In this document: positions 1-63,830 of the stretch, in pieces
How the letters are laid out: each line of letters begins with the position of its first letter
Numbering within the stretch: position 1 is the first letter of the stretch
Source of the DNA: Candidatus Uhrbacteria bacterium RIFCSPHIGHO2_02_FULL_46_47
GTDB lineage: Bacteria; Patescibacteriota; Patescibacteriia; GWA2-47-26
Direction of reading: 5' to 3'
Assembly (NCBI GenBank): GCA_001790815.1
Contig: MGDU01000010.1
Span: 2,621 to 66,620 of the forward strand
Length of the DNA stretch: 64,000 nucleotides
Notes under the pieces: generated by a model
The model's input: only the letters and a program-made list of their open reading frames with translations
Told to the model about the DNA's origin: nothing
Database searches by the model: none
Made by a program: the position numbers and the translations under genes

Positions 1-193
1 TGTGGAAAACCCAAAGTTTGTAATGGTAACCCGTATTGATCGTCCCAAGGATGTCCAATTTGCCGAGTCCTCGGCCGCCCCGCTTTTTGGCGAAATTGCG
101 CGATTTTTACTGCAATATTACGAGATTAAGCCAACCCGGCCGATTGTACAACACTGAGTGTGGTACAATATACGGAAGCTCAGCCTCCGTAAT

Positions 194-904
194 ATGCGCA
201 ATATCAATTTCTATAATGGAGGATTTTATCACATTTATAATCGCGGTGCATTAAAAGAACCGATTTTTTTAGAAGTGAATGACTATGTGCGATTTGTGCA
301 TGATCTGTACGAATTTAACGATGTAAATTATACTATTGATTTTCGGAAGATAACAGGAAGCTCAGCTTCCGTTGCATCCACGGAAGCTGAGCTTCCGAGC
401 ATTAAAAAGCCGCAGCGTGAGCCGGTGGTGGCGATCATATCATGGTGCTTGATGCCAAATCATTTTCATCTTTTCTTACAACAGCTGAAGGATGGTGGTA
501 TAAGTTTTTTTATGCATAAACTCGGCACCGGATACACCAACTATATTAATCGAAAATATGAAGAGCGGAGCGGACACCTTTTTCAAGGAAGATTTAAGGC
601 AAAACATATTGGGCAAGAAGGATATTTTTTACATATTTCGCGTTATATTCATCTGAATCCTGTGGATTTGATTGAGTCAGGATGGAAAGAAGATGGGATC
701 AAAGATTGGAATAAAATACAAGAATTTTTGGAAAATTACCGTTGGTCTAGTTACCAAGATTGGGTTGGGAAGAAAAATTTTCCATCTGTGTTGAATTTGA
801 ATGGAGTGGAGAAGATTTTTGAAGGTGCAGAAAAATATACAAGGTTTATGAAAGAATGGGCAACTGGAAATTATCAGCCGATAAAAAGTTTAGTTGCGGG
901 ATAA
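194..904 (+). CDS. REP-associated tyrosine transposase (RAYT, Y1 HuH transposase, IS200-like)
   Basis: Motif I FYHIYNRG, HuH motif MPNHFHLFL, catalytic-Tyr region SRYIHLNP. Start moved from 158 to the Met preceding motif I; about 17 aa (ITGSSASVASTEAELPS) between motif I and HuH are encoded by an inserted REP doublet. Confidence 0.8.
   Translation: MRNINFYNGGFYHIYNRGALKEPIFLEVNDYVRFVHDLYEFNDVNYTIDFRKITGSSASVASTEAELPSIKKPQREPVVAIISWCLMPNHFHLFLQQLKDGGISFFMHKLGTGYTNYINRKYEERSGHLFQGRFKAKHIGQEGYFLHISRYIHLNPVDLIESGWKEDGIKDWNKIQEFLENYRWSSYQDWVGKKNFPSVLNLNGVEKIFEGAEKYTRFMKEWATGNYQPIKSLVAG
356..396. repeat. REP-like palindrome doublet (family A, GGAAGCTCAGCTTCC) in-frame inside the RAYT gene
   Basis: Two 15-bp palindromes in inverted orientation separated by 11 nt; same element at 909-948 and 62243-62279. 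Confidence 0.8.
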
Positions 905-908
905 TATT

Positions 909-948
909 CGAAGCTGAGCTTCCGTAAATTACGGAAGCTCAGCTTCCG
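909..948. repeat. REP-like palindrome doublet (family A) downstream of RAYT
   Basis: cgaagctgagcttccg-taaatta-cggaagctcagcttccg, a 40-bp composite palindrome. Confidence 0.8.
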
Positions 949-1025: not shown

Positions 1026-4000
1026 ATGAGGAAAATATCCCTATTTCTCCTATTTCTTTTAATAGGAGGCGCTGTCATATTTGGCCGTGCCTTAACGGTT
1101 TTTGCTGTTGCCGGGATTCCAAAAGTAATTAATCACCAAGGACGGCTTCTTGACAGTAGTGGCAATTTGCTTGGCGGATCCGGGACCAATTATTGTTTCC
1201 GATTTTCCATTTATGATGATGTAACCGTGGGCGCTCCGGACACCAAAGTTTGGCCAGCTGGCACGCCTTCTACCATGACCGCGCAGGTGCGCAATGGGGT
1301 GTTTAATGTAGGGATAGGGGATACGGCGGCCGGCGGCGATACACTGGATTTTAATTTTCAAGATAATGATACTGTATTTTTGAATGTGGAAGTTGCCGCG
1401 CAAATAAGTAGCTCATGCGCAGGAGTAACATTTGAAACTTTAAGTCCGCGCCAGCGCGTAGCTTCTTCCGGGTACGCGATTAATGCTGATACAGTTGACG
1501 GGCTTAATCCCGGCACTGGCGCGAACAATCTTTTGAAACTTGGTTCATCCGGCGAGATCGCGCTTGGCGGAACTACTTATTTGACTGCCGCCGGCGCGCT
1601 TTCAAACATCGCAAGTCTTACCGGTTCAGGCGCGCTGACTATTACTTCAAGCGCCTCTGGCGCGATTACTCTTGATGCCGCTTCAAATGTGGTTGCTATT
1701 GCGGCGGGCGATGAATTACAACTTGGCACGGCCGCGGCAGACCCTACTGGCGCAAACGGCCGCGTATTTTATAACACGGCAACCAATAAGTTCCGCTGTT
1801 ATGAAAATGGCGCGTGGGCTAATTGCATTGGCGCGGGCGGGAGCAGTACTTTGCAAGATGCCTATGGCAATGGAAATACCATTACCACAACTGATGCCCG
1901 CAACATTCTTTTTTCACTTGCAGATACTGCGACAGATTCGGATTTTATCATAGATCTTTTAGGCACTGGCAACATATTTGAAGTGCGCGATAGCGGCGTA
2001 GCTGTCGTGACTGTGGCCGATGGCGGCGCGACAACCTTTACCGGCGCGGTTACAGCCAATGGTAATATCAATTTTGACGATGCTGGCGCAGATACGATTT
2101 CAATCGGCGCTGCAGCAGATACCGTGACAATTACCTCTGACACCCTGTCTTTGACCGACAATAACTGGACAATTTCCACAGTGGGCGCGGCTTCTTTTGC
2201 CTCGCTTTCGGTGGGCGGCGTTTCTGATCCCTACGTGGACGAAACCGGAGACACCATGACCGGATCACTGACTTTCTCCGCAGTTGCCACTGACCTTACC
2301 ACTGGCGTGAATGAAGCCCTGACCATCTCTCCCAATGGCACTGGCGACTTGGTGGTTGACACAGACGCTGACACCACCCTGACCTTAAACGGCGGAGGAG
2401 ACGGAGTTGATTCTCTGGTGCTTACCGACGGCGATATTCTTGTTTCTGACGGCGATCTTGACCTTTCCGGCGGGGACTTCAATGTTACGCTGGATGCCGG
2501 CGATACGGCCAACATTTCCAAAACCTCAGCCAATGCCGGGGATGTGGTGGCTTTAGCCGGCACCTCAGTCAATGCCATTGACGTGCTGGATCTCTCCGCC
2601 ACCTCTATAGCTGACGCGGTAGCGGATGCCATAAACGGCTTGGTAATTAACTGGACTGAATCCACTGACGCTGACACTTTCACTGCCTTAAACATCGGCA
2701 ATACCACCACCACCAATTCCGCCACCACCGGCATTTCCCTCGGCACAGGTTACGACACCGACTTAAACGCCACGACCGACCTGACTCTGGGCATCGGCGG
2801 AACGAATGAACTCACCATCACCTCCACGGCCACATCTCCCTCCACCTCAGACGGCAATGCTCTGGGCACCACCTCCTTAATGTGGGGCGATCTGTTCCTG
2901 GCCTCGGGCGGAGTGATCAACTTTGACAATGGGGATGTTACCCTCACCCATGCCGCTAATGCGCTCACCATGGCTGGAGGAAATCTAACAGTTACTCAAC
3001 CTGTGTTTACTTCCGGTTCGCCTTTCGGCTTAACCTTCACCGGCGGGGCGCATACCACGCTTGCGGCTGGAACGCAGGCAAAAGACATATACTTCAATCT
3101 TGGACGGACAGTGCAGTTTGCAACCGGAGCGTTGGCTAATCAGGAAGTAATTACGATTGACGCTCCGACTTACGCTTTCGTGGGAGCCTCAACGCTTACA
3201 GAGGCAACAACATTAAACATCTCCGGTGCGCCTCAACAAGGCACAAACGCCACGATTACAAACGCTTACGGACTTACGATTAGCCAAACCAATTACGCTA
3301 GCGCAAATGCCGTCCAGTCATTGATTGAAATGCCCGGGATTTCCAACGGAGCCGGAGCAATAACATCCCGTATAGGATTAATCATTGCTGATGCGGGCGC
3401 TAACATATCGCTTGGCAATCAAACCGCTACGCTTACTTTACTTAAAGGGCTTAGTATCAATACGGTAACCTATGAGTCCACCACAAATACCCGAACTGTC
3501 ACAAACGCGATAGGGGCAACCATAGCCGCGCCGTCTTCAGGTACGAATGTGACAATGAACACCGTTGTTGCTCTTGTCCTTGGCGATGACAACACACAGG
3601 CTAGCCAAACAGGATTTGCGTACGCGGATTTGGTAACCGGCGGCAACACTTTGACGCTTACTGGCACAACACAGCTCACCAACGTGCCTTCAATTTCTAG
3701 TGTCAATGTTGGCGCAACTACGATAACGGACGCTTCGGCGATTACGGTAGACAGCGTGGCCAGTGTTTATATTGAGGGAGCTCCAATCGCGGCAGGGTCG
3801 GTGACGCTTACGAATGCTTATGCGTTGTGGGTGGATGCGGGGGCTATTAGATTTGATGATCAAATCCAATGGGGAGCAGGTGTTGCAGTTACAGCAGGGA
3901 ATTATTCTGTCGGGAGAAACGCTGATGGTACGAATCTATTGCAACTTAACGTGCCAACTGGCTCAACACACGAGTTTTCCGTGAACGATGTTTCCCAAGT

Positions 4001-7000
4001 CAATGTGGGATTGGGCGGATTTAGCTTCCCTACTGGTGCCGCAATAACCGCGGCTGGTTATCAAGTTCTCCGCGATGCCGATGGAACGAATCAATTGCAT
4101 TTTAATGTTCCGACTGGAGCCACCTTTGAATGGTCGGTAAATGATGTTGCGGAGATGACGCTTTCGGCAACGGCGGTGAATTTTCAGAACAATTCCTTGA
4201 CTACGACTGGCGGTGGTTCGCTTACCGGTACTTGGACTGATTTGGGAAGCGTAACAACGATAGATATTAACGGCGGCACCATTGATGGCGCGACAATCGG
4301 CGGAGCGGTTGCAGGTGCAATCACTGGTACAACTATCACCGCTAATACCAATTTTGTCCCGGACGCGGATGACGGAGCTGGACTGGGTATTTCTGGTACA
4401 GCTTTCTCAGATTTGTTCTTAGCTTCTGGCGCAGTCATCAACTTCGCGGCTGGCGATGTAACGCTCACGCACGCTTCCAACTCCCTCGCAGTAGCCGGCG
4501 GCGACCTGAATGTGGATATTATTGATGGGCAAACTATTAACCTGGACGGGGATGCCAGCCCGACTGCGGATCTGGTAACCATTGGCTCTGGGGACACTTC
4601 GGCCACCGGCGGAGTGGACGCGCTACAGCTTACTTTCGGAACCTCCAATGTTTCAGGAAATGTCATTGATATTACACCGAGTTATGCCGGCGGAGCTACG
4701 GATCTTCTTTCCTACAAAATCATTGATATTGACGCTTTTTCTCCCACCAACGGCGCTGGCACTGATGGAGTTACTGGGATTGACTTTGGCGCGCTGACTG
4801 ACCCAGGCGCCACCATCAATTCTTTTGCCATGAATTTTGGCACGGGTTGGGACACGGATATCAACGCCGTTACCTCTTTGGAAATTGGCATTGGCGGCAC
4901 CAATGAGCTGGCACTCACGGCCACGGCTCTTGCTCCCTCCACCTCGGACGGCAATGCCCTGGGCACCACCGCCTTGATGTGGTCCGACCTGTTCCTCGCT
5001 TCGGGTGGAGTGATCAACTTTGACAACGGAGATGTTACTTTGACGCATGCGGCCAATGCGTTGACCATGGCTGGAGGAAACTTGACCGTCACCCAGCCGG
5101 TGTTTACTTCAGGTTCTCCTACCGGCTTGACCTTTACTGGCGGGGCGCATACAACACTTGCGGCGGGAACACAGGCAATAGACATAAACTTCAATCTTGC
5201 CCGAACAGTTCAATTCGCCACTGGCGCGTTAGCCAACCAAAGCGCGATAAACATCAGCGCGCCGACTTATGGTTTTGTCGGGGCTTCAACACTTACTACT
5301 GCGGAGTTGCTTACGTTAAGCGGATTTCCTCAGGCCGGAACAAACGCCACAATTACAAACGAGCGGATACTCCATATTGCCTCAGGCACAGCCAATGCCG
5401 GTATCGCATACAGTTTTTTCATTGATATGCCGGGGATTGCCAACGGCTTTGGCGCAATGACGAGCTTAGAGGGCATAATGCTCTCTGCGGGAGGCAATGT
5501 TTCTTTAGGGAACCAAACTGCTACTCTTTCTAATCTGATTGGGCTTAGCATTGATACTGTAACTTACGAGTCCACGACAAATGTAAGAACAGTGACAAAT
5601 GCAGTGGGAATGGTAATCTCTGCGCCATCTTCCGGTTCAAATGTCGTGATGAACACAGTGATAGCGGGCGCCTTTGGCGGAGATACAACGCAGGTGAGCC
5701 AGACAGCATTCCAATATGTGGATATTTTAACCGGCGGCAATACCCTGACGCTTACCGGCACAACGCAATTAACAGGAGCACCTTCAATTTCCAGCATTGC
5801 TGTTGATCCAATTACCATTACCGACGCTTCGGCAGTAACGGTTGATAACGCGGCAAGCGTGTACATCACGGGCGCGCCTATTGCGGCAGGGTTAGTTACG
5901 CTTACCAATGCTTATGCGCTTTGGGTTGATGCTGGGGCTATTAGATTTGATGACCATGTTCAATGGGGAGCAGGCGTTGCGGTTACAGCAGGAAATTATT
6001 CTGTCGGAAGAAATGCGGATGGTACGAATCTATTGCAGTATAACGTCCCGACTGGCTCAACGCATGAGTTTTCCGTGAATGATGTTTCCCAAGTCAATGC
6101 GGGATTGGGCGGATTTAGTTTCCCTACTGGTGCCGCAGTTACGGCGGCTGGTTATCAAGTTCTCCGCGATGCAGATGGTACAAATCAACTACATTTCAAT
6201 GTGCCCACAGGAGCTACCTTTGAATGGAGTGTAAACGATGTTGCCGAGATGACGCTTTCCGCAACGGCGGTGAACTTCCAGAATAATTCCTTGACTACGA
6301 CTGGCGGCGGTTCTCTTACGGGTACTTGGTCGGATTTGGGAAGTGTAACAACGATAGATATAAATGGAGGTACGGTGGACGGAGTAACGATTGGCGGAGC
6401 AGTGGCTGGAGCGATTACGGGAACGACCATCACAGCTACTACAAGTTTTGTAAGTGCAGTAGGTTCTGCCGCCGCTCCTACTTACACTTTCACAGGCGAT
6501 ACGAATACAGGAATGTCCGCGGCTACGGCTGATACGCTTATTCTCTCCACAGCTGGTGTCGCAGGATTAACGATTGATCCGACCCAGGACTTTACCCTAA
6601 CACAAGGCGTTTCTGCGACTGGTTCTCCTACCGGCCTTACCTTTACCGGTGGGGCGCATACTACGCTCGCGGCCAGTACAGAGGCGAGAGATGTTTACTT
6701 TGACCTTTCCAGAACAGTGCAGTTTGCAACAGGTGATATTACAGTGCAACGAGCAATGGTTATTGACGCGCCGACTTACGCGGCAGTTGGAGCAAGCAAC
6801 TTCACGCATACTTATGGTGTAGTCATTGACGGTGCGCCCAATCCGGGTACGAATGTTACATTTACCGGAATTTCCTCGGCTTTGAATATCGGGAATATGG
6901 ATAACGGGAACAATTATAGTCAAACAGAAGTTATTCATGGAATCGCCATGATTCCGGGTATTGCCAATGGTACGGGTGCCGTGGCAGAGCGCGGAGCATT

Positions 7001-10000
7001 TACCACTGCTCCGCCTGATTCAGGAATCCACCTTGGCAATCAAACCGCGACTTTGGATCTTCTTTATGGAATGGGTGCATTTGGCGGCCCGGTTGATTCA
7101 ACTACCAATACCCGCACGGTTACAAATGCCGCCACGCTTTATATTGATGGGCCGTTCAGCAATGCCGGAAATGTCACTTTCACCAACGGGCCTTATTCGC
7201 TTTGGGTGGATGCGGGGGCTATTAGATTTGATGATCAAATCCAATGGGGAGCAGGAGTTGCAGTTACAGCAGGGAATTATTCTGTTGGGAGAAACGCAGA
7301 TGGTACTAACTTAATGCAATTTAATGTACCTACTGGAGCGGCTTTTGAGTTCTCAATCAACGATGTTGCTCAAATTACTGGTGGTCTAGGGGCATGGAAT
7401 TATGCGGCTGGAGCTAGTTTTGCTGGAGGAGCCGCAAATTACATCATCGGAAGAAATGCTGACGGAACAAACCTCATGCAGTATAACGTCCCAACAGGAG
7501 CTTCGCATGAGTTTTCAATCAATGATGTTGCGCAAATAGCTATAGGTGGAGGTCAATTTTCCTTCATCACGGGTACGGCGACCGCTGGGGCTAGTTATTC
7601 TGTTGGACGAAATGCCGATGGTACGAATTTAATGCAGTACAATGTTCCGACTGGAGCTTCGCATGAGTTCTCTGTGAATGATGTTACCGAAATGACCCTC
7701 TCCGCAACAGCGGTGAATTTTCAGGATAATTCAATCACTACGACTGGCGGCGGTTCGCTTACGGGCACTTGGACTGACTTGGGTTCAGTTACCACGGTAG
7801 ACATCAACGGCGGAACGATTGATGGTGTAACTATTGGCGGAGCAGTTGCAGGGGCAATCACTGGTACAACTATCACAGTTAATACTAATCTTGTGCCAGA
7901 CGCGAATGACGGTGCAGGTCTTGGTATTTCTGGCACAGCATTTAGTGACTTGTTCTTAGCTTCTGGGGGAGTCATTAACTGGGCGGCAGGGGATGTAACA
8001 CTTACTCATGCCACAGATGCGCTCACCATGGCTGGAGGAAACTTGACCGTTACCCAGCCTGTGTTCACTTCCGGCTCACCCACCGGTCTTACCTTCACGG
8101 GCGGGGCGCATACCACGCTAACGGCTGGCAATCTTATTGATGTCAACTTCAACCTTGCTCGCACTGTTCAATTCACAACAGGTGCCGCGTTTGATTATTA
8201 CGGGGTTCAGATTTCGGCTCCGACTCTTGGAGCCACCGCCGCCACACAGACCATCTCAGGAACTACAATGTTTATCGGTGGCGGTCCAATAGCTGGAACG
8301 AATGTAACATTGAGTGGAAGCACCGCGCTAGAAGTGGACGGCTGGTTTTCCAATTCAGATATCGCGGATACCGTGTTTATTGATTATCCAGAGATCGCTA
8401 CTGGATTTGGCGCGGCGACAGAACGAGCCGCCTTAAGGATCGGAGGTGATACCTTCATTCTTGGTAATCAGACCGCCACTTTGACCGATCTGGCGGCCAT
8501 TAGCATTGGTCAAGCTACTTTCACATCCACCGACCTTGTCCGAACTGTTACCAATCCAAGCGCAATTTACATCGAGGGCGCGCCAGTGGCGAGTACGAAT
8601 GTTACTTTCACCAACGGGCCTTATTCCCTTTTTGTGGATGCCGGCGCCGCGCGGTTTGACGGCGCGGTGGCTTTGGGCGCCCAGCAATCGCTTACGGTGA
8701 ACTCAACCACCCCATCTGTTTCAGCTGGTTCCCACTTTGTTACGGCCAATTCTGCTGGAACGGTTATTAGCAATTTCACCAGCGGCCACAATGGGCAGAT
8801 CCTTGTCGTGGAAATCAACGACGCCAATACTGATTTTGACTGCACCGCTTCAAACCTTAATTGCGGTGGCGCGGACATCACCACTCCCGCGGCCGGAGAT
8901 CTTTTCACCTTCGCGTACGACGGCACGAACTGGAACCTCATCAACTGGATGGATACCTCCGCGACCCAAACCGGCGCGGATATTGCGGAATATATGTATG
9001 CGGATGCGGAGATTGCGCCAGGAACTGTGGTAGTGGCGCACCCAACGCGCAAAGAAGCTGTTATGGCGGGCGCGAAAGCTTATGACGCGACAGTGGTGGG
9101 CATTATTTCAGACGTTGAAGGTAAGTTGAGCGATATTCGACCGGGTCTCGTGCTTGGTGAAGGTCGCGGTAATGTGCCGGTCACTCTTGCCGGACGCGTG
9201 ATGGCGGCGTTTGATTTACAAAATGGTCTAGCATTTCCGGGCGATCCGCTTACCACCAGTACTAACGGCCGGCTGATGGTGGCTAAAAAAGCCGGCCCGA
9301 TTGTGGGCAAGGCCTTGAGTTTGGCCGAAAACGGATATGTGGTCGCTATGGTGAGCGTGGGTTGGTACAATCCCACGGATCTTTCACAAGTAAGCCAGGA
9401 GATGGAGGATTTGCGCGAACAAGTAAGAATCGCGCAAGCGGAAACTGCTCCAATAGAATTTACGCTGGAAGCCATGCAAAAGTTGGATGTTCGGGTTGCT
9501 AATCTTGAAACTTTGATTGCCGAACCGATAGAAGAGTTGTCAATACTTTCCAATCGCGTGGGAACCCTTGCGGATGCTTATGCGGAGGCGATAATATGGC
9601 GCGCAAGTGTTGAGACACAACTTATCGCGTTTACTGGTCGAACTGATACGCTGGAGGCGCGGGTAAATGCGATTGATCCTGTGCTTGAGGATTTGAAAAA
9701 TCGTTTGAGCGCGGTTGAGAATCCGTCACTGAGTGATGGTTCGGAAAATCACTCAGTGACAACGTTGGATTTGAGTAAGCTGGAATTGTCAGGCAGTTTG
9801 ACATTGCAAAGTGGGGCAACGATTTCCGGTGGTTTGCGCGTGGATAGCGTGAGCGCAATAGGGGATCTGCTGGCACTGATGAGTGATGTGAACTTTATTG
9901 GCCGGCCGTACTTTAACGCGGATACCGGAGGATTCGCACTTGTGAAAAAAGGTGAACGTGAGGTGCGAGTGGCGTTTACGCAAGAGTATTTGGAACAGCC

Positions 10001-10649
10001 GGTGGTAAACGCGACAATTTCACTTGAAGCCCTTGATGAATCAGCGCTTACGGAAGATCAGCGCGCTTTGCTTGATGAAGCGCAGAAAAAAGATTTGCTT
10101 GCCCAGATGCAGAGCGAACAAGAAGAGGCGCTTTTTACAAGTGGGGTGCGCTACTTGGTAACGCGCAAGAGTACCAAAGGATTTACGATTCTTTTGAGCG
10201 CGGCCGCTCCATCAGATGTGCGATTTAGCTGGATCGCGCTGGCAGTGAAGAACGCACGAACGCACACGAAAGTTGAAGATACACTAACGGACACGAACAC
10301 AAGTAGCGCGGCACTTGATGTGCCGCTGGAGGCACCCTCACCCCCGCAGTCATCCGACGCGGCTACGAACCCTCTCCCTGCGGGAGAGGGAGTAGTTTCT
10401 CCTCCGGATGATGCGGCGGTTCTTGAACCTGCCACAGAGCCCACGCCGGAAGGGCTAAGTCCTGTCGCAGGGCTTAGCCCTGAAACCAGCAACGCCCCAG
10501 AACCTGCACCTGAGCCAGTCGGGTCATCCGACCCGACTGCCCCGTCGGATGACGGGGCAGAACCCGCACCGGAAACCGCACCAGAGGCCACGCCAACCTC
10601 TGATATTTCATCCACAGATAGCATAGTTGCCACAGAGGAAACGCCATGA
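1026..10649 (+). CDS. giant (3207 aa) secreted/surface repeat protein, fibre/adhesin-like
   Basis: N-terminal signal/TM ([14 protein letters not shown]). Thr/Gly/Ala/Asn-rich beta-repeat modules are reiterated ([44 protein letters not shown] x3-4; [36 protein letters not shown] x3+). A C-terminal globular segment ([23 protein letters not shown]...WYNP) is followed by a coiled coil and a Pro/Ala/Glu-rich tail. The strand is uninterrupted for 9.6 kb. Confidence 0.85.
2791..8130 (+). repeat. intragenic long tandem/mosaic repeats (about 2.1-kb period) within the giant gene
   Basis: 2791-4886 vs 4887-6980 align with roughly 80-85% DNA identity, by eye. A third partial copy with extra [23 protein letters not shown] sub-repeats lies at about 7190-8130. 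Confidence 0.75.
9723..9760. repeat. palindromic insertion element, family D (TCACTGAGTGAT..ATCACTCAGTGA), in-frame in the giant gene
   Basis: 14-bp perfect inverted repeat with 11-nt spacer; encodes [14 protein letters not shown] near-identical copy sits at 13290-13328. Confidence 0.75.
10335..10391. repeat. GC-rich palindromic insertion element, family C, in-frame in the giant-gene tail
   Basis: CCCTCACCCCC...CCCTCTCCCTGCGGGAGAGGGAG; encodes [20 protein letters not shown]. Confidence 0.6.
10452..10483. repeat. palindromic insertion element, family B (GGGCTTAGCCC pair), in-frame in the giant-gene tail
   Basis: agggctaagtcct..cagggcttagccctg; encodes [10 protein letters not shown]. Confidence 0.7.
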
Positions 10650-10969: not shown

Positions 10970-11085
10970 TAATTTAAAAATAAGTATACAACTATGGGAA
11001 ATGCAAAACGACTCGCTACTCCTGAACCAACAACCGAGCCAGTTGCCACCGAAACCCAGCCGTGATATTATGACAGTTACTAAAT

Positions 11086-11133
11086 GTAGTCGCAGGTCTT
11101 TAGCCTGCGCGCAACCTAAAGAGTTGCGGCTAC
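11086..11133. repeat. REP/BIME-like element, family E (GTAG..hairpin(TCTTTAG loop)..hairpin(CTAAAGA loop)..CTAC)
   Basis: gtagtcGCAGGtctttagCCTGCgcGCAACctaaagaGTTGCggctac: two stem-loops with the conserved loop and different stems. Confidence 0.7.
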
Positions 11134-11153
11134 CTAATTATAATAAATAAAAT

Positions 11154-11549
11154 ATGGGAAATGCAAAACGTTTTGTTCCCCTAATTCTTTTTTTGCTACT
11201 TGTGGCCTCTGTCGCAGGAAATGCAATGCTGTATAAAAAGCTCAGAGTCCTTAAGCAAAATCCGCAAATGCTTGCACAAGAAGAAAATAAAGCCCTAGTT
11301 GCTAAAGTAGGCCAATTAATTGTTTTGCCTGAAGGCGAGGAGCCAACTGTTGCAACGGTAAATGAGCCGGAAAAACTCAAAGATCAGCCATTTTTCGCAA
11401 ATGCAAAACAAGGCGACAAGGTCTTGATTTACACTAAAGCGAAAAAAGCAATTTTGTATCGCACGGCGGAAAATAAGATTGTTGAAGTCGCGCCGGTAAA
11501 TATTGGTGAACAGCCAGCCGTAAGCGCGCCAGAGGCGCCTAAGGAATAG
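11154..11549 (+). CDS. small membrane-anchored protein, hypothetical
   Basis: 131 aa with N-terminal TM (FVPLILFLLLVASVAG); bracketed by inverted family-E elements. Confidence 0.5.
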   Translation: MGNAKRFVPLILFLLLVASVAGNAMLYKKLRVLKQNPQMLAQEENKALVAKVGQLIVLPEGEEPTVATVNEPEKLKDQPFFANAKQGDKVLIYTKAKKAILYRTAENKIVEVAPVNIGEQPAVSAPEAPKE

Positions 11550-11552
11550 TTT

Positions 11553-11607
11553 GTAGCCGCAACTCTTTAGGTTGCGCAATTGACGCCGGCTAAAGACCGG
11601 CGACTAC
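11553..11607. repeat. REP/BIME-like element, family E (inverted relative to the 11086 copy)
   Basis: gtagccGCAACtctttagGTTGCgcaattgacGCCGGctaaagaCCGGCgactac. Confidence 0.7.
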
Positions 11608-11620: not shown

Positions 11621-11666
11621 CCCTCACCCTCAATCCCTCTCCCCGAGGGAGAGGAAAGGTGAGGGG
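11621..11666. repeat. GC-rich palindromic element, family C (intergenic copy)
   Basis: ccctcaccctcaatccctctccccgagggagaggaaaggtgagggg: nested inverted repeats. Confidence 0.7.
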
Positions 11667-13056: not shown

Positions 13057-13940
13057 AAATTATTGTTGTCCTAATGGTGCTCGCGCCTAATTTTGCGTAC
13101 GGAGCGGAGTTTTATTTTGGCACACAATCAAAAGAAATCGGCGTGGGGCAATTGGGAGAGGTCGGAGTGTTTTTAAATACTGATGATGCGCAGATTAACG
13201 CGATTGAAGGAAAAATTATATTTTCCGATAGTGTGACGGTGAAAGAAATTCGCGAAGGCGGTTCAATGATTAGTTTGTGGGTTGAGAATCCGTCACTGAG
13301 TGATGATGACCCTAATCACTCAGTGACGATCATGTTTAGCGGGATTATCCCCGGCGGCTACACCGGTAATCGCGGATATTTGTTCTCGATAATATTTGAA
13401 AAAACTAAAGTCGGCGATGTGAAAATTGAAGTGAATGATGCGCGCGCATTGCTTAATGACGGGCAGGGGACATCGACTGAAGTACGCGTATCGCCACTCA
13501 CGCTTGCGGTCGTAGAAAAAACTGGGGCGCCGGGATATTTGCCGCCTTATGATAATGAGCCGCCGGAATCATTTGTGCCGGAGATTGCGCAAGATCCGAA
13601 TTTATTTGATGGAAAATGGTTTGTTACATTTGCCACGCAGGATAAAATTTCTGGAATTGATCGTTATGAAATCGCATTTGGTTCACTTGGCAATTTCGTT
13701 CGTGTTGAAAGTCCGTTTGTCTTGCCACTCTGGAAACAGCTGGCTGGTGGAATTGTTAGGATTAAAGCCATTGATCGCGCTTCAAACGTTCGCATTGAAA
13801 CTTTACCAATCGCCATACCTTTGCCCTGGTATGAAGATTATCGGATTTGGGGTATAATCCTAGGAGGAGCTATTATTGTATACCTCATATTTCGTCTATG
13901 GAAGCAAAAACAAATAAAACACACAAAAAAACACGAATAG
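13038..13940 (+). CDS. membrane-anchored protein with cohesin-like domain
   Basis: Signal MKNVKLKIIVVLMVLAPNFAYG. Domain GVGQLGEVGVFLNTDDAQINAIEGKIIFSDSVTVKEI...VKIEVNDARALLNDG fits the cohesin beta-sandwich pattern; C-terminal TM (IWGIILGGAIIVYLIF). Contains the in-frame family D palindrome (PSLSDDDPNHSVT). Confidence 0.5.
   Translation: MKNVKLKIIVVLMVLAPNFAYGAEFYFGTQSKEIGVGQLGEVGVFLNTDDAQINAIEGKIIFSDSVTVKEIREGGSMISLWVENPSLSDDDPNHSVTIMFSGIIPGGYTGNRGYLFSIIFEKTKVGDVKIEVNDARALLNDGQGTSTEVRVSPLTLAVVEKTGAPGYLPPYDNEPPESFVPEIAQDPNLFDGKWFVTFATQDKISGIDRYEIAFGSLGNFVRVESPFVLPLWKQLAGGIVRIKAIDRASNVRIETLPIAIPLPWYEDYRIWGIILGGAIIVYLIFRLWKQKQIKHTKKHE
13290..13328. repeat. palindromic insertion element, family D, in-frame in the cohesin-like gene
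   Basis: ccgtcactgagtgat-gatgaccctaa-atcactcagtgacg. Confidence 0.75.
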
Positions 13941-15333: not shown

Positions 15334-15367
15334 GAATGTAAAATTAAAAATGTAAAATGAAAAATGA
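15334..15367 (+). promoter_or_regulatory. family G element (tandem TGTAAAAT boxes) at the murF start
   Basis: ggaaTGTAAAATtaaaaaTGTAAAATgaaaaatg; supplies the MKNE.. start. Confidence 0.45.
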
Positions 15368-16763
15368 GTGTATGAAGGAAGTAGTAATATCTATCCTCCA
15401 GGTATTTGCCAAGCTCATTTTGCAAAAATATAAACCCACTATTGTCGCTATAACCGGTTCGGTTGGAAAAACGTCAACCAAAGAGGCAATTTACGCGGTT
15501 CTTGCTTCAAAATTTTCCGTACGCGCGACGCCCAGAAATTATAATAATGAATTGGGCGTACCGCTGACTATAATTGGAGCAGGACTTAGCCCTGAGCGTG
15601 AAAGGGCTAAGTCCTTGTTTCTTGGAAAGTCACCTTTTCGCTGGTGTAGAGTATTTTGCAGAGCATTGTGGCAAATTATCATGCCTGCGCGCTATCCGGC
15701 AATATTAGTGCTGGAGATGGGAGCAGATCGGCCAAAAGACATACAAAAACTCGTAAAACTTGCTCCGCCAAAAATTGGGGTGGTAACTGCTATTGCGCCA
15801 GTGCATACTGAATTTTTTGGCGATGTGGAAAAAGTGGCGCGTGAAAAAAGGCGTCTTGTTGAAGCAGTGCCAAAGCAGGGGACAGTGGTATTAAATATAG
15901 ATGATGAAATGGTGCGTGAGTTTGCAAAGCATGCAAAAAGTACGGTTGTTGGTTATGGAATTGAGAGCAATGAGGCAGAAGTAAGGGCAGTTGAGGTGCA
16001 TGATGATATTGAAATAGGGGGAAGCCGAACCTCCGATGCTTCGGAGGTTCGGCTTCCAGACATTGAATTAGGCAGTATTCATTTCAAAATTATAACTGAC
16101 GGCTCTGCCGTGCCCGTGCATTTGCCTAGTGTGTTGGGCCACGCCCACGTGTACGCGGCGCTTGCCGCTTGCGCAGTGGGACGCGCGTTTGGAATGCACA
16201 TGGTTGAAATTTCCCGTGCGCTGTTAAATTATGCTCCGCCTCCCGGCCGCATGCGAATTATTGCTGGCATTAAAAATACGGTGATCATTGACGATACTTA
16301 CAATGCTTCTCCGCGGGCAACTGTAGCCGCCCTTGAAACACTTGGAGGGCTAAGCCCTTTTTCAAAATCAGGGCTTAGCCCTGTGCGTTACGCCGTGCTT
16401 GGCGATATGCTGGAGTTAGGGCCTTATACAGAATCCGGCCATCGCGAAGTGGGCCGCGTTGCGGCGCAAAATGCCGATGTAGTTATTGGCGTGGGTGTCA
16501 GTGCGCAATGGCTTGTTGATGAGGCAAATAAAACCCGTCTAAATTTACCCTCTGCTGAAGGAAATTTTGTCGGGCATTTGCATACCCATGACGAAGCCGA
16601 ACATTTTTTGCAGGAGCGAATACGGCCGGGCGATGTGATACTGATCAAAGGATCTCAAAGCATGCGCATGGAGAAGCTCGTCAAAGGTCTAATGGCTGAA
16701 CCTTTGCGCGCGGATGAATTATTATGCCGACAAGAAAAAGAATGGTTGACACGACAACACTAA
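15357..16763 (+). CDS. murF: Mur ligase family protein, MurF-like (UDP-MurNAc-pentapeptide synthetase)
   Basis: P-loop ITGSVGKTSTKE and MurF-type NNELGVPLT motif. The usual N-terminal domain is missing, and it carries two in-frame family B palindromes (GLSPERERAKSL; GGLSPFSKSGLSP). Confidence 0.65.
   Translation: MKNECMKEVVISILQVFAKLILQKYKPTIVAITGSVGKTSTKEAIYAVLASKFSVRATPRNYNNELGVPLTIIGAGLSPERERAKSLFLGKSPFRWCRVFCRALWQIIMPARYPAILVLEMGADRPKDIQKLVKLAPPKIGVVTAIAPVHTEFFGDVEKVAREKRRLVEAVPKQGTVVLNIDDEMVREFAKHAKSTVVGYGIESNEAEVRAVEVHDDIEIGGSRTSDASEVRLPDIELGSIHFKIITDGSAVPVHLPSVLGHAHVYAALAACAVGRAFGMHMVEISRALLNYAPPPGRMRIIAGIKNTVIIDDTYNASPRATVAALETLGGLSPFSKSGLSPVRYAVLGDMLELGPYTESGHREVGRVAAQNADVVIGVGVSAQWLVDEANKTRLNLPSAEGNFVGHLHTHDEAEHFLQERIRPGDVILIKGSQSMRMEKLVKGLMAEPLRADELLCRQEKEWLTRQH
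15581..15615. repeat. family B palindrome in-frame in murF
   Basis: aggacttagccct-gagcgtgaa-agggctaagtcct (12-bp perfect inverted repeat). Confidence 0.75.
16347..16383. repeat. family B palindrome pair in-frame in murF
   Basis: gggctaagccc..agggcttagccctg. Confidence 0.75.
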
Positions 16764-19055: not shown

Positions 19056-19607
19056 ATGTTAGGGGGAATACAGCAGTTAGTCTCAAGCATCAATTGGTCT
19101 CGGCCAAGCTGGGATTTATTCATTTTTTTGTTTTTCTTTATTATCGCGTTTTTGTACGGTTTTTCTTTGGGACGCGACCGTATTTTAGTGATTTTAGTTT
19201 CCATCTATATTGCCCTGGCGGTAGTTCCCGCCTTTCCTTATCTTGATCGTCTACATCTTGATGTGTCAGTGCAGGGTTTTGCATTCCGCGTAACCTCGTT
19301 TTACATTGTATTCGTAGTTTTGTTTTTCCTGTTATCTCGCTCCGCGCTTGTGAATCTCTTGGGCGCGCAAAACACAGGAGTGGGAGATCGTTTAATTGAG
19401 GTTATTATTTTTAGTATTTTGCACGTTGGACTTTTAGTTTCTGTTACGCTCTCTTTTTTACCTCAAAATGCCCTGATGCAGCTTTCTACCGGCACGCGCG
19501 AAGTATTTACCTCTGATATGGGCAAGTTTTTGTGGCTTGTCGCGCCGGTAATCGCAATGATTATATCTTCACACCATCGATGGCGAAGAGGAGGATTCCA
19601 GGGCTAA
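19056..19607 (+). CDS. integral membrane protein (4-5 TM), possibly CvpA-like
   Basis: Multiple hydrophobic helices; the stop codon lies inside a family B palindrome. Confidence 0.45.
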   Translation: MLGGIQQLVSSINWSRPSWDLFIFLFFFIIAFLYGFSLGRDRILVILVSIYIALAVVPAFPYLDRLHLDVSVQGFAFRVTSFYIVFVVLFFLLSRSALVNLLGAQNTGVGDRLIEVIIFSILHVGLLVSVTLSFLPQNALMQLSTGTREVFTSDMGKFLWLVAPVIAMIISSHHRWRRGGFQG

Positions 19608-19636
19608 GCCCTGTGGCATCTTAGGGCTTAGCCCCG
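19599..19636. repeat. family B palindrome pair (intergenic, overlapping the stop of the 19056 gene)
   Basis: cagggctaagccctg-tggcatct-tagggcttagccccg. Confidence 0.75.
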
Positions 19637-26592: not shown

Positions 26593-26766
26593 CACCAGCC
26601 AACGCCCATTGCGCATTTTGCACATTTTTTCATTGCTTTTTTGTTTTTGTGAATGTGCTATACTGATTTACTATGGTATCTCATCTCTATAACTCATATA
26701 TTAAGCGCAAGGAGAGATTTTCGGCTGGTTATCATAATTTGTACAATTCTCTTCCATTCAACACAT

Positions 26767-26798
26767 AACAAAAATCTCACGATCGTGAGATTTTTGTT
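26767..26798. promoter_or_regulatory. perfect 32-bp palindrome with TCACGATCGTGA core
   Basis: AACAAAAATCTCACGA|TCGTGAGATTTTTGTT. Confidence 0.55.
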
Positions 26799-26942
26799 AT
26801 AAACTGCCGCGAAGTCATTAGCGCACGCCAGCTGACTTTCGCAAATTATTCACTCCATAATATCATGCGCGAAAAGGAGGTTGTGGATAAGTCTATTTCA
26901 ATATGCATATCAAATGTGATACGATGGCCACACTTATCAATA

Positions 26943-26971
26943 ACAAAAAAGTCACGATCGTGAACTTTTTG
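26943..26971. promoter_or_regulatory. palindromic operator-like site (TCACGATCGTGA core) 10 nt upstream of the wHTH/Cas2-like gene
   Basis: acaaaaaagtcacgatcgtgaactttttg; a near-identical direct copy is downstream at 27607-27638. Confidence 0.55.
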
Positions 26972-26980
26972 CGATAGATT

Positions 26981-27628: not shown

Positions 27629-27638
27629 ACTTTTTGTT
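27607..27638. promoter_or_regulatory. palindromic site (TCACGATCGTGA core) downstream of paralog 1, about 90 bp upstream of cysS
   Basis: aacaaaaaagtcacgatcgtgaactttttgtt. Confidence 0.55.
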
Positions 27639-27705
27639 ATGCATTAAATTGCACGATAATTTCCATCTACGGGTTTTGTGATAGGTTTTATGAAATTTAT
27701 GAGTG

Positions 27706-61743: not shown

Positions 61744-63830
61744 TTAAAGATGAAGCAAAAAAGCGAATTGAGAAATTGCGCGAGGGAATTAATCGCTATC
61801 GATATCAGTATCATGTACTGGATAAGCTTGAAATTTCCGAAGCCGCGCTGGACTCATTAAAGCACGAGCTTTTTAAGCTGGAACAAGAGTATCCGGAATT
61901 TATCACGTCGGATTCGCCAACTCAGCGGGTTGGCGGAAAGCCTCTGCCGGAATTTAAAAAAGTGACGCATAAGGTGCCCATGCTTTCCATGGAAGATGTG
62001 TTTTCGCCGCAGGAACTTACGGCATGGCTCACAAGAATTGAGCGGCACTATCCTAATGGCCATTTTGATTTTTACGCGGAAGTTAAAATGGACGGATTGG
62101 CTGTATCGCTTATTTATAAAAATGGCATACTGCATACCGGATCTACGCGTGGAGATGGAAAAGTGGGGGAGGATGTAACGCAGAATTTGAAAACAATTGA
62201 AGCCATCCCATTGCGCTTGCGTGTACCAAGCGAATCAGAAATCCGGAAGCTGAGCTTCCCAGGGGGAAGCTCAGCTTCCTTATATCTTACAATTACCAAT
62301 GCTATTGAACACGGCGAGATTGAAATTCGCGGTGAAGCGTACATGTCCAAGAAAACTTTTGAGGAGCTTAATTACGAGCAAAAGAAAAAGGGCGAAGAAT
62401 TATTTGCCAATCCGCGCAATGCCGCCGCCGGGGCAATTCGCCAGCTGGATCCTAAAATCAGTGCCTCGCGCCGACTTTCATTTTTTGGTTATGCGCTTTT
62501 GTTTCCTCCCCTGCCTGAGGGGAGGATTAAGGAGGGGTGGGAGACCCACGAGCAAGCGCACGAACTTATAAAATTATTCGGAATTCCGGTGAATTCGGAA
62601 AATAAGCACTGTAAAACTCTTGATGACGTAGTGCAATTTCATGAGCACGTTTATAAAAAGCGTGAAAAGCTCCCATATTGGACTGATGGTATTGTCGCGG
62701 TTATAAATAATGACGCGACGTTTGAGCGGCTTGGGGCGGTTGGTAAAGCGCCGCGCGGGATGATTGCGTATAAATTTCCGGCGCAACAGGCAACCACAAA
62801 AGTAAAAGAAGTGCGCTGGCAAGTCGGCCGTACTGGCGCGCTTACGCCCGTTGCGGTAATGGATCCGGTTTTTGTGGCCGGAACAACCGTTCAGCACGCT
62901 ACCCTGCATAATATGGATGAGATTGAGCGACTTGGTCTGAAAATAGGGGATACGGTAATTTTGGAAAAAGCCGGCGACATTATTCCAAAAATTGTGAAGG
63001 TTTTGTCAAAACTGCGCACTGGCCATGAAAAAATAATCCACACGCCAACGCATTGTCCGGCTTGCGGAAGTAAGGTCACGCGCGCGGAGGGCGAGGTTGC
63101 AATAGTTTGCAATAAAAAAAATTGTCCGGCAAAACATCTGGAAAATATCACGCATTTTGTTTCCAAAAAAGCCATGGATATTGACGGACTTGGCTATAAA
63201 ATAGTGGAACAGTTAATGAATGCGGGGTTTATTGCCACGCCGGCAGATATTTATAAACTGACCAAGTCAGATTTGATTGATTTAGAACGGTTTGGCGAAA
63301 AATCCGCGGAAAATCTGATTGCCGCCATTAATAAAGCACGCACGCCCCAGCTTTCACGTTTTATTTTTGCGCTGGGTATTAAACATGTGGGTGAGGAAAC
63401 TGCGGTGGATTTGGCCAACACTTTTGGCACGCTTAAAAAAATACGCGGAGCCGCGCTTGAAGAGCTTGAAGCCGTACCGAATATCGGTGAAGTAGTGGCG
63501 CGATCATTGCACGAGTATTTTTCGGACAAGCACAATCAAAAATTAATTGATGATTTGCTTGATGCAGGGGTTAGAGCTGAAGAAGTGCATATTAGGCGCC
63601 ATCAACCTTTTACGGGAAAAACATTCGTATTGACCGGCGGCCTGGAAACCATGACGCGCGATGAAGCCAAAGAAAAAATCCGCGCCTTAGGCGGCGATAT
63701 TTCCGGCTCGGTTTCCAAAAACACCGATTATGTCGTCGTCGGCACCGACCCCGGCGACAAATACGAAAAGGCCAAAAAACTCGGAATTAAAACACTAGAT
63801 GAGAAAACGTTTCGGGGCATGCTAAAATAA
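61740..63830 (+). CDS. ligA: NAD-dependent DNA ligase LigA with two in-frame palindromic insertions
   Basis: Adenylation motif KMDG (EVKMDGLAVSL), Zn finger CPACGS..C, HhH and C-terminal BRCT (FTGKTFVLTG). Insertions: family A REP doublet (KLSFPGGSSASLY) and family C ([15 protein letters not shown]). Confidence 0.9.
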   Translation: MIKDEAKKRIEKLREGINRYRYQYHVLDKLEISEAALDSLKHELFKLEQEYPEFITSDSPTQRVGGKPLPEFKKVTHKVPMLSMEDVFSPQELTAWLTRIERHYPNGHFDFYAEVKMDGLAVSLIYKNGILHTGSTRGDGKVGEDVTQNLKTIEAIPLRLRVPSESEIRKLSFPGGSSASLYLTITNAIEHGEIEIRGEAYMSKKTFEELNYEQKKKGEELFANPRNAAAGAIRQLDPKISASRRLSFFGYALLFPPLPEGRIKEGWETHEQAHELIKLFGIPVNSENKHCKTLDDVVQFHEHVYKKREKLPYWTDGIVAVINNDATFERLGAVGKAPRGMIAYKFPAQQATTKVKEVRWQVGRTGALTPVAVMDPVFVAGTTVQHATLHNMDEIERLGLKIGDTVILEKAGDIIPKIVKVLSKLRTGHEKIIHTPTHCPACGSKVTRAEGEVAIVCNKKNCPAKHLENITHFVSKKAMDIDGLGYKIVEQLMNAGFIATPADIYKLTKSDLIDLERFGEKSAENLIAAINKARTPQLSRFIFALGIKHVGEETAVDLANTFGTLKKIRGAALEELEAVPNIGEVVARSLHEYFSDKHNQKLIDDLLDAGVRAEEVHIRRHQPFTGKTFVLTGGLETMTRDEAKEKIRALGGDISGSVSKNTDYVVVGTDPGDKYEKAKKLGIKTLDEKTFRGMLK
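62243..62279. repeat. family A REP palindrome doublet inserted in-frame in ligA
   Basis: ccggaagctgagcttcc-caggg-ggaagctcagcttcc, identical in type to the RAYT-flanking elements. Confidence 0.85.
62505..62543. repeat. family C-like palindromic element in-frame in ligA
   Basis: cctcccctgcctgaggggaggattaaggaggggtgggag. Confidence 0.75.

What the first reader, a model, noticed from the sequence alone, without database searches (positions are those of the whole stretch)
173..948. RAYT (REP-associated tyrosine transposase) whose cognate REP doublet has invaded its own ORF and the ligA ORF
The HuH transposase gene at 194-904 is bracketed by GGAAGCTCAGCTTCC palindromes (173-189, 909-948), the classic RAYT-REP arrangement. 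The same REP doublet sits in-frame within the RAYT gene between motif I and the HuH motif (356-396, adding about 17 aa), and again in-frame in ligA (62243-62279). A transposase carrying its own substrate inside its coding sequence is unusual. It may affect RAYT activity or create a self-targeting cleavage site.
Basis: partly seen in the sequence, partly recalled or inferred. Interest (0 to 1): 0.65.

Follow-up and report, generated by a model that had tools for sequence, protein, structure and literature searches.

The report
Transposase gene carrying its own hairpin
A REP-mobilising tyrosine transposase (RAYT) gene from a Patescibacteria-type genome carries an in-frame copy of the DNA hairpin it is thought to mobilise, and about half of 88 related genes do the same, each with its own genome's hairpin, so each such gene names its own presumed DNA substrate.

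Summary
The palindrome GGAAGCTSAGCTTCC occurs at 174-188, 356-396, 909-947 and 62245-62279, against 0.07 matches expected by chance.

ORF 194-904 is an intact Y1 HUH protein. Its closest solved structure is the E. coli RAYT bound to a REP hairpin.

The internal doublet encodes residues 55-68, in a loop that AlphaFold2 models with low confidence. It does not add 17 aa: related genes have linkers of similar length whether or not they hold a hairpin.

It is also not a one-off invasion. In 42-43 of 88 related genes, almost all from Patescibacteria, the same linker holds a palindrome matching the one flanking that gene. The palindrome sequence differs between genomes. Control segments of the same ORFs match in 3.6% of cases, and flanks of other loci in 1.7%.

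This palindrome family lives mostly inside genes. In metagenomes, 29 of 30 doublets lie in frame in long ORFs, including enolase, GatA, UvrB, UvrC and DinB. The ligA copy is one of these.

Most likely this is a RAYT-plus-flanking-REP locus (REPtron) with a third, long-resident internal REP kept matched to its flanks. Whether it has a function is untested. I found no earlier description.

The parts
172..190 (.). Upstream REP unit ACGGAAGCTCAGCCTCCGT: an 8-bp stem with one A.C mismatch and a 3-nt loop, ending 3 nt before the start codon
194..904 (+). RAYT-like Y1 HUH transposase ORF, 236 aa. HUH at nt 461-469 (H90, H92); conserved Tyr Y151 at nt 644-646
322..415 (+). Coding segment for the variable linker (residues 44-74) between helix 1 (res 28-40) and the strand leading to HUH (res 79-86). 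AlphaFold2 confidence is low over residues 51-70
356..396 (.). Internal in-frame inverted REP doublet (REPIN-like): a 17-bp perfect hairpin with a 7-nt loop, encoding GSSASVASTEAELP (res 55-68)
909..947 (.). Downstream inverted REP doublet, starting 5 nt after the stop codon: a 17-bp hairpin with a 3-nt loop
61740..63830 (+). NAD-dependent DNA ligase gene ligA, 696 aa, intact; E = 2e-182 against E. coli LigA
62245..62279 (.). In-frame inverted REP doublet of the same family inside ligA (RKLSFPGGSSAS), within a lineage-variable segment of the adenylation domain (res 162-192)

Best explanation
ORF 194-904 encodes a RAYT-type Y1 HUH single-strand DNA transposase. Its cognate hairpin, an 8-bp stem with a 3-nt loop that often occurs as inverted doublets (REPINs), sits at three places in the locus: just upstream of the start codon, just after the stop codon, and in frame inside the gene.

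The internal copy lies in a variable, low-confidence loop between helix 1 and the HUH strand, where the extra residues should be tolerated. It is not a fresh accident. The linker is a long-standing hairpin site across a Patescibacterial RAYT clade.

The internal copy stays matched to the flanking copies while the hairpin sequence diverges between genomes. That is concerted evolution. I infer it works by templated replacement or gene conversion among the three closely spaced copies, or by RAYT-mediated turnover. Where that upkeep stops, the internal copy decays in place.

The hairpin family is open in 5 of its 6 reading frames. In these gene-dense genomes it survives mainly as in-frame insertions in surface segments of housekeeping proteins, and the ligA copy is one of those.

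- Shown: the anatomy, the co-variation with flanks, the enrichment in the linker, the mostly intragenic location of the family, and the fold.
- Inferred: that this RAYT mobilises these hairpins, how the three copies are homogenised, and any regulatory effect of a -33 kcal/mol hairpin inside the mRNA or gene.
For: **The protein**
- Pfam Y1_Tnp 5.5e-11.
- A profile of the homologs hits 4ER8 best in the PDB, aligning HUH and the Y-x-x-x-NP motif.
- The AlphaFold2 model has pLDDT 86.8 and pTM 0.84. The only internal stretch below pLDDT 50 is residues 57-65, inside the REP-encoded segment 55-68.
- Foldseek's top hit is 4ER8 at E = 3e-6, followed by the IS608 and ISDra2 TnpA structures.

**The clade-wide pattern**
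- In 88 related genes (80 GTDB loci, 4 close metagenomic relatives and the window), the HMM-defined linker shares an exact match of at least 12 nt with that gene's own 150-nt flanks in 42-43 cases. In 26 of these it matches both flanks.
- Control segments of the same ORFs match in 17 of 476 cases.
- Linkers match the flanks of other loci in 122 of 7140 comparisons, 1.7%.
- The palindromes differ between genomes: GGAAGC/GCTTCC here, GGAGAC/GTCTCC in L081 (70% aa identity), CAGAGGC.. in L082, CGAGG.. in L083, ACGGAGGAC.. in L084, ACAGGGGT.. in L009, ATTTTATCGGGGAC.. in L026, and others.

**Long residence and upkeep**
- Linker length is the same with and without the palindrome, median 27 against 25 aa.
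- In a subclade with a constant 19-aa linker, some members have a perfect hairpin at the homologous codons (QGxPL) and others a decayed remnant.

**Site specificity**
- Cognate copies occur at about 5 per kb in linkers (my arithmetic: about 42 copies in 88 linkers of roughly 90 nt). The next 1 kb has 0.13 per kb and more distant DNA about 0.03 per kb.

**Intragenic lifestyle**
- 29 of 30 doublets of this exact family in metagenomes lie in frame in long ORFs.
- Ten of these ORFs were checked with Pfam and are intact housekeeping genes: GatA-type amidase, enolase, PolX, GltX, DinB, UvrB, KsgA, class-V aminotransferase, pyruvate kinase and UvrC.
- Two of the loci are independent assemblies of the window's own organism and carry identical copies.
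Against: - No biochemical data link this protein to these hairpins.
- The NCBIfam REP_Tyr_transpos score is 47 bits, below the cut-off of 80.
- The classical GTAG tag is absent. The copies that flank these genes, here and in the four close relatives, carry TAC or ATTTAC next to the stem.
- The family is sparse. The window has one dispersed site in 64 kb, and the 88 loci have 38 dispersed copies in about 1 Mb of flanking DNA. Mobilisation is therefore weakly evidenced in many genomes.
- 32 of 88 genes have matching flank palindromes but none in the linker, so the internal copy is dispensable for keeping the ORF intact.
- The homogenisation mechanism is inferred only from pattern.
- The unit is palindromic except for one central base, so orientation cannot be used as evidence.
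Confidence: 0.7

Rival explanations
1. The internal hairpin is a selected cis-acting element. The RAYT recognises the hairpin in its own gene or mRNA, together with the copies upstream and downstream, and uses it to limit its own expression. Alternatively the ORF shelters a master copy that re-seeds the REPIN family. On this view selection, not only mechanical homogenisation, keeps it matched to the enzyme's specificity.
For: - Internal copies are as intact as the flank copies, with exact matches of 17-34 nt, in genes whose proteins are only 40-70% identical.
- Occupancy of the linker is about 40 times higher than in the adjacent 1 kb.
- The hairpin changes while linker length stays constant in the 19-aa subclade.
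- The hairpin is very stable, -33 kcal/mol as RNA.
- The upstream copy ends 3 nt before the ATG both here and in L081.
Against: - 32 of 88 genes keep matching flank palindromes with no internal copy, and decayed remnants sit in intact ORFs.
- No asymmetry between G.T and A.C mismatches points to an RNA-level constraint; the counts are too small to judge.
- Frames and encoded peptides vary.
- No expression or binding data exist.
Confidence: 0.3
2. This is a one-off, recent and essentially random insertion of a REPIN into its own transposase gene, tolerated by luck.
For: - This genome is full of in-frame palindromes: 23 of 30 perfect hairpins lie in long ORFs. A chance hit on any one gene is therefore plausible.
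- The doublet is perfect, which fits a recent origin.
Against: - The same position is occupied by the locus-specific palindrome in 42-43 of 88 related genes, against 1.7% in cross-locus controls.
- The four closest relatives all carry their own doublet there.
- The linker is no longer than in relatives that lack a palindrome.
- Several intragenic palindrome families are present in the window, yet the linker holds the one that flanks the gene.
Confidence: 0.05
3. The unit is an ordinary IS200/IS605-type insertion sequence: a mobile transposase gene with subterminal hairpins, not a domesticated RAYT. The internal hairpin would be an alternative or relic end.
For: - Fold and sequence similarity to the IS608 and ISDra2 TnpA structures is nearly as good as to 4ER8.
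- In many loci the palindromes are few and concentrated at the gene.
- L014 has two tandem copies of the gene.
- Neighbouring genes are mostly not conserved between homologs.
Against: - The window has one copy in 64 kb.
- The palindrome spreads without the gene: in ligA here, and at 28 further loci in metagenomes.
- The hairpins are near-perfect palindromes identical on both sides of the gene, not distinct left-end and right-end structures.
- The best structural match is the RAYT.
Confidence: 0.1
4. The linker encodes a conserved functional peptide, such as EV(Q/E/G)(L/P)R or QGxPL. On this view the palindromy is incidental, and the flanking copies derive from partial duplication of the gene.
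For: Recurrent peptide patterns appear in the linkers.
Against: - Those peptides are simply the translation of GAAGTnnnACTTCG-type and CAAGGGnnnCCCTTG-type palindromes.
- The same palindrome type is read in different frames in L009 and L044.
- The peptides differ completely between subclades.
- The loop is modelled with low confidence.
- The same palindromes occur in unrelated housekeeping genes.
Confidence: 0.03

Closest known systems
REPtron: RAYT / TnpA-REP gene flanked by its REPs (E. coli yafM, PDB 4ER8; Pseudomonas and Stenotrophomonas groups 2 and 3)
   Same: - Y1 HUH protein with a conserved Tyr; best fold and sequence match in the PDB.
- The gene is bracketed by the palindrome that also occurs elsewhere without the gene.
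- The hairpin geometry, an 8-bp perfect stem with a 3-nt loop, resembles the group 3 REPs described in PMC8266576.
   Different: - A third cognate copy lies in frame inside the ORF. The RAYT/REP papers I searched do not describe this.
- There is no GTAG tag; the gene-flanking copies here and in four close relatives carry TAC or ATTTAC instead.
- The protein is longer (236 aa against 165) and has a 31-aa linker between helix 1 and the HUH strand. Homologs share this layout, with linkers of 7-48 aa.
- It scores below the NCBIfam cut-off.
- The hairpin family is sparse and mostly intragenic rather than extragenic.
REPINs (inverted REP doublets; Bertels and Rainey, PMC3116915 and PMC3337134)
   Same: Two REP units in inverted orientation with a 3-14 nt spacer fold into one long hairpin. 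Copies are dispersed without a transposase gene.
   Different: Spacers are much shorter. 29 of 30 copies lie inside coding sequences, in frame. One copy sits inside the presumed mobilising gene.
Rickettsia palindromic elements and intragenic GTAG/CGTC REPs (Di Nocera et al. 2013, PMC3733652)
   Same: - Palindromic repeats are inserted in frame in intact housekeeping genes.
- DNA repair and replication genes are prominent among them, including a DNA ligase in Opitutus terrae.
- Here the hosts include LigA, PolX, DinB, UvrB and UvrC.
   Different: - A different sequence family and a different host phylum.
- Here the intragenic repeats have an identifiable candidate transposase, and that gene is itself a regular host of the repeat.
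- No homology to RPEs was tested.
IS200/IS605 family (IS608, ISDra2)
   Same: The catalytic fold is the same, and a coding sequence is bordered by hairpins that a Y1 transposase recognises on single-stranded DNA (PMC8266576).
   Different: - There are no distinct left and right ends.
- There is no evidence of a multi-copy gene.
- The hairpins are perfect palindromes identical at both ends and inside the gene.

Membership tests
RAYT / TnpA-REP (REPtron) | HUH motif and a single catalytic Tyr in a Y1 transposase fold | tested here: met
   H90, H92 and Y151 are invariant in 118 homologs. Pfam Y1_Tnp 5.5e-11. Foldseek's best hit is 4ER8 at E = 3e-6 with target-normalised TM-score 0.68.
RAYT / TnpA-REP (REPtron) | Scores above the curated NCBIfam equivalog cut-off (NF047646, 80 bits) | tested here: not met
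   47 bits, E = 2.4e-12, matching residues 67-157 only.
RAYT / TnpA-REP (REPtron) | Gene immediately flanked by copies of a palindrome | tested here: met
   Copies at 172-190 and 909-947. 60 of 88 homologous genes have matching upstream and downstream palindromes.
RAYT / TnpA-REP (REPtron) | The same palindrome is dispersed in the genome without the gene | tested here: met
   The ligA copy in the window. 30 doublet loci in metagenomes, 2 of them from the window's own organism. Density is low.
RAYT / TnpA-REP (REPtron) | Conserved GTAG tetranucleotide 5' of the hairpin | tested here: not met
   Flanking bases are TAC or ATTTAC next to the stem. A separate GTAG-tagged family exists in the window but is not associated with this gene.
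RAYT / TnpA-REP (REPtron) | Single-copy gene with no sign of self-mobility | tested here: inconclusive
   One copy in 64 kb. No complete genome was available. L014 has tandem duplicates. Synteny is mostly not conserved.
RAYT / TnpA-REP (REPtron) | The protein binds and cleaves single-stranded cognate REP | not testable with these tools
   Needs purified protein and oligonucleotides.
REPIN | Two REPs in inverted orientation forming one hairpin, present in many copies | tested here: met
   16-17 bp perfect hairpins. 30 loci in metagenomes.
Intragenic palindromic elements (RPE-like) | In-frame, stop-free insertion in intact conserved genes | tested here: met
   29 of 30 doublets lie in long ORFs. 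Pfam confirms 10 housekeeping families. LigA aligns to E. coli LigA on both sides of the doublet.
IS200/IS605 insertion sequence | Multi-copy element with distinct left-end and right-end hairpins, mobile as a unit | tested here: inconclusive
   Not seen in the window. The ends are identical palindromes. Complete genomes are needed.

The most novel reading that the evidence does not exclude
In this clade the RAYT gene deliberately houses the master copy of its own substrate. The in-frame hairpin would be a cis element that the enzyme recognises on its own gene or transcript, either to throttle its own expression or to seed new REPINs. Enzyme and substrate would then be inherited as one self-contained unit and co-evolve.

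If so, each of these genes reports its cognate DNA hairpin, giving dozens of natural enzyme-substrate pairs for working out how Y1 HUH transposases read hairpins.
Probability: 0.3. Interest if true: 0.8.

Novelty: new variant of a known kind. Interest (0 to 1): 0.68.

Why it matters
How RAYTs pick their REPs, how REP families change over time, and whether REPINs still move are open questions. So far they have been studied in a few proteobacterial systems.

This clade offers more than 40 natural cases in which the gene carries, in frame, the same hairpin that flanks it, and the hairpin sequence differs from genome to genome. That gives a ready set of candidate enzyme-hairpin pairs for specificity studies. 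It is also a clear case of concerted evolution between coding and non-coding copies.

The results also show a REPIN family that lives mostly inside housekeeping genes of gene-dense Patescibacteria. This extends the Rickettsia RPE phenomenon to another phylum and supplies a candidate mobilising enzyme.

For annotation, these hairpins explain many odd short insertions in Patescibacterial proteins.

Tried and rejected
- **Single-sequence PDB search.** It found nothing relevant for the RAYT. A profile search was needed.
- **Orientation of the three copies.** I first read differences in the loop centre (CTCAG against CTGAG, TTCAA against TTGAA) as orientation flips. L038 and L039 are 98% identical and differ there by a single substitution. 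Orientation rests on one base, so I dropped it as evidence.
- **G.T against A.C mismatch asymmetry.** This was meant to separate RNA-level from DNA-level constraint. The stems have too few mismatches: upstream copies 5 G.T against 1 A.C, linker copies 2 against 4, downstream copies 6 against 3. Inconclusive.
- **Promoter and terminator scan of 1-1100.** No plus-strand promoter-like site upstream of the gene, so I make no promoter claim.
- **Rfam.** No family matches any of the palindromes.
- **Synteny.** A penicillin-binding-protein gene sits directly upstream of the RAYT only in the window and in L044, and 1.4 kb away in L056. This says little about whether the gene is mobile.
- **Local hopping alone.** Cognate copies are about 4 times denser within 1 kb of the gene than further away, but about 40 times denser again in the linker. 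Proximity alone does not explain the occupancy.
- **First motif-based linker definition.** It missed about 25 loci. I replaced it with HMM-based mapping.
- **Source genome.** It was not among the top GTDB hits; the best was 59% identical. No whole-genome REP census was possible.

Full report
**1. The observation**

The 15-nt palindrome GGAAGCTSAGCTTCC occurs at seven positions in the 64-kb window.
- One unit at 174-188, with one stem mismatch.
- An inverted pair at 356-370 and 382-396.
- An inverted pair at 909-923 and 933-947.
- An inverted pair at 62245-62259 and 62265-62279.

Dinucleotide-preserving shuffles give 0.07 matches at the same stringency.

The pair at 356-396 lies in frame in ORF 194-904 and encodes GSSASVASTEAELP. 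The pair at 62245-62279 lies in frame in ligA and encodes RKLSFPGGSSAS.

Each pair folds as one perfect 16-17 bp hairpin. The free energy is -31 to -33 kcal/mol as RNA and about -20 kcal/mol as DNA, with z-scores of -6 to -9.

**2. The gene**

ORF 194-904 (236 aa) matches Pfam Y1_Tnp at 5.5e-11. It matches the NCBIfam RAYT model at 47 bits, below that model's 80-bit cut-off.

Homologs number in the thousands. Those that carry a source name are annotated as Patescibacteria-group (Parcubacteria, Wolfebacteria) or simply 'bacterium'. H90, H92 and Y151 are invariant in 118 aligned sequences.

A profile of the homologs finds the E. coli RAYT (4ER8) as its best PDB hit. The alignment pairs the HUH motifs and pairs YIHLNPV with YIYINPV.

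An AlphaFold2 model is confident overall, with pLDDT 86.8 and pTM 0.84. Its best structural match is again 4ER8 (E = 3e-6), followed by the IS608 and ISDra2 transposases.

The only internal region below pLDDT 50 is residues 57-65, inside the REP-encoded segment 55-68. This loop connects helix 28-40 to strand 79-86, which leads into HUH. The gene is intact and looks functional.

**3. Not a simple 17-aa insertion**

Every homolog has a variable linker at this position, 7-48 aa long. The window's linker is 31 aa, and its closest relatives have 19-35 aa. Across 88 genes the median linker is 27 aa when it holds a palindrome and 25 aa when it does not.

**4. The main result: the internal palindrome is clade-wide and co-varies with the flanks**

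I fetched 80 related loci from GTDB genomes and four close relatives from metagenome assemblies. I mapped the linker in each with an HMM.

| Comparison | Exact match of at least 12 nt |
|---|---|
| Linker against its own 150-nt flanks | 42-43 of 88 (48%); 26 match both flanks |
| Other same-length segments of the same ORFs against those flanks | 17 of 476 (3.6%) |
| Linker against the flanks of other loci | 122 of 7140 (1.7%) |

The palindromes differ between genomes.
- Window: ACGGAAGCTCAGCTTCCGT
- L081 (70% aa identity): CGGAGACTCAGTCTCCG
- L082: CAGAGGCTCAACCTCTG
- L083: CGAGGTTGAGCCTCG
- L084: ACGGAGGACGGTCCTCCGT
- L009: ACAGGGGTTGCACCCCTGT
- L026: ATTTTATCGGGGACAGTCCCCGATAAAAT
- L050: TGTACAAGGGCCGCCCTTGTACA

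The four closest relatives all carry an inverted doublet in the linker, as the window does. Nearer homologs are positive more often (32 of 48) than distant ones (11 of 40). A further 32 genes have matching upstream and downstream palindromes but none in the linker.

In a subclade with a constant 19-aa linker, some members have a perfect hairpin at the homologous codons (CAAGGGnnnCCCTTG, read as QGxPL). Others have a decayed remnant at the same place. That points to long residence with upkeep or decay, rather than repeated fresh insertion.

Cognate copies occur at about 5 per kb in linkers (my arithmetic: about 42 copies in 88 linkers of roughly 90 nt). The next 1 kb has 0.13 per kb, and more distant DNA about 0.03 per kb. 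Proximity to the gene alone does not explain the occupancy.

**5. The family lives inside genes**

A metagenome scan for the window's doublet returned 30 loci. Two of them are independent assemblies of the window's own organism: L091 matches at 100% and L092 at 99.96-100% over their shared stretches, and both carry the same copies.

In 29 of the 30 loci the doublet lies in frame in a long ORF. Ten of these ORFs were checked with Pfam and are intact housekeeping genes: GatA-type amidase, enolase, PolX, GltX, DinB, UvrB, KsgA, class-V aminotransferase, pyruvate kinase and UvrC.

The unit is open in 5 of its 6 reading frames, which follows directly from the sequence. The encoded peptides are GSSAS, EA(E/Q)LP or KLSF.

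In LigA the doublet sits in a lineage-variable segment of the adenylation domain, residues 162-192, which is absent from E. coli LigA. That segment is no longer in the window than in Patescibacterial homologs. The closest homolog carries a different, unusual peptide there that looks repeat-derived.

Intragenic REPs, including one in a DNA ligase, and their frequent occurrence in repair genes were reported by Di Nocera et al. (PMC3733652).

**6. Genome context**

The window has 30 perfect hairpins with a stem of at least 9 bp, against 0-2 in shuffles. Of these, 23 lie inside long ORFs and belong to several families.

The RAYT linker nevertheless holds the family that flanks the gene. There is only one RAYT gene in the window. 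No Rfam family matches the palindromes.

**7. Interpretation**

The best-supported reading is a REPtron-like locus with a third, in-frame cognate REP or REPIN in a tolerant loop. It is inherited across a Patescibacterial RAYT clade and kept matched to the flanking copies by concerted evolution.

The mechanism of that homogenisation is inferred. Candidates are gene conversion among three copies spaced within about 800 bp, or RAYT-mediated turnover.

A selected cis role, such as autoregulation or a sheltered master copy, is compatible with the intactness and site specificity of the internal copies. It is not required, because a third of the genes lack the internal copy.

A one-off random invasion is contradicted by the comparative data. 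An ordinary IS200/IS605 element is not excluded without complete genomes.

**8. Novelty**

Full-text searches returned the main RAYT, REP and REPIN papers. Term searches inside six of them (PMC6006769, PMC5581495, PMC3733652, PMC8266576 and the RAREFAN preprint among them) found no description of a REP inside a RAYT gene. The library does not cover all journals, so this is absence of evidence in what could be searched.

I rate the finding a new variant of a known kind.

Noticed in passing
window 10370-10390, 11636-11654, 28260-28280, 28879-28935, 41323-41341, 44928-44948, 45769-45825, 47567-47587, 60986-61004, 62505-62525: A second, more abundant palindrome family, CCTCTCCC-N3-5-GGGAGAGG and the variant CCTCCCC..GGGGAGG. 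All 12 copies lie in frame inside long ORFs and encode PSPxxGEG-type or PPLPEGR-type peptides. One sits in ligA as a window-specific insertion of about 8-10 aa. No associated transposase gene is in the window.
   Followed up: partly
window 11074-11144, 11541-11607, 31055-31184, 46457-46481, 57630-57715: A classical GTAG-tagged palindromic repeat family (GTAGTCGCCGCTCTTTAGGCGGCGC...CTAC), often as doublets. The copies lie outside long ORFs, so they look like true extragenic REPs. No RAYT for this family is in the window.
   Followed up: partly
window 15357-16763 (ORF with a Mur-ligase-like sequence, judged by eye, no domain search run); hairpins at 15581-15615, 16020-16057, 16346-16382: One ORF carries three in-frame palindromic doublets from two families. 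The one at 16020-16057 (GGAAGCCGAACCTCCGA..TCGGAGGTTCGGCTTCC, peptide GSRTSDASEVRLP) looks like a diverged relative of the finding's palindrome.
   Followed up: partly
window 9725-9760, 13291-13328; 15581-15615, 16346-16382, 19601-19634, 37768-37802: Two more doublet families: GTCACTGAGTGAT..ATCACTCAGTGAC (peptide PSLSD..NHSVT) and AGGGCTTAGCCCT..AGGGCTAAGCCCT (peptide GLSP). Most copies lie in frame in long ORFs. The first family's peptide also appears in metagenome locus L090.
   Followed up: no
window 1026-10649: A giant 3207-aa ORF with internal repeats of about 2.1 kb (direct repeats D1-D7). An independent assembly of the same organism (L092) lacks 36 nt at window 1748-1783, an in-frame strain-level indel.
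   Followed up: no
window 31645-31743, 40967-41056, 48310-48420: AT-rich composite inverted repeats of about 100 nt (ATGCCAATCTACAAAT...). They are conserved at 80-96% in contigs of other metagenome bins (L085, L090, L106, L113), so they form another shared repeat family.
   Followed up: no
protein P0121 (closest LigA homolog, Parcubacteria GW2011_GWC2_45_7): At the LigA position that holds the REP doublet in the window, this homolog has a longer, unrelated peptide (..PRVKHGILRFAQDDAHVV..). It looks repeat-derived, which suggests different elements colonise the same permissive site in different genomes.
   Followed up: no
L014 1319-2033 and 2244-2958; L020 and L024 (two RAYT genes each): L014 has two tandem RAYT genes whose linkers encode the same 27 aa and hold the same hairpin. 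L020 and L024 each carry two different RAYT genes within 10 kb, each with its own palindrome.
   Followed up: no
window 26765-26800, 26940-26989, 27605-27654, 34960-34999, 35645-35684, 63927-63938: Intergenic palindromes built around TCACGATCGTGA with A/T-rich arms, in at least six copies. Their role is unknown.
   Followed up: no
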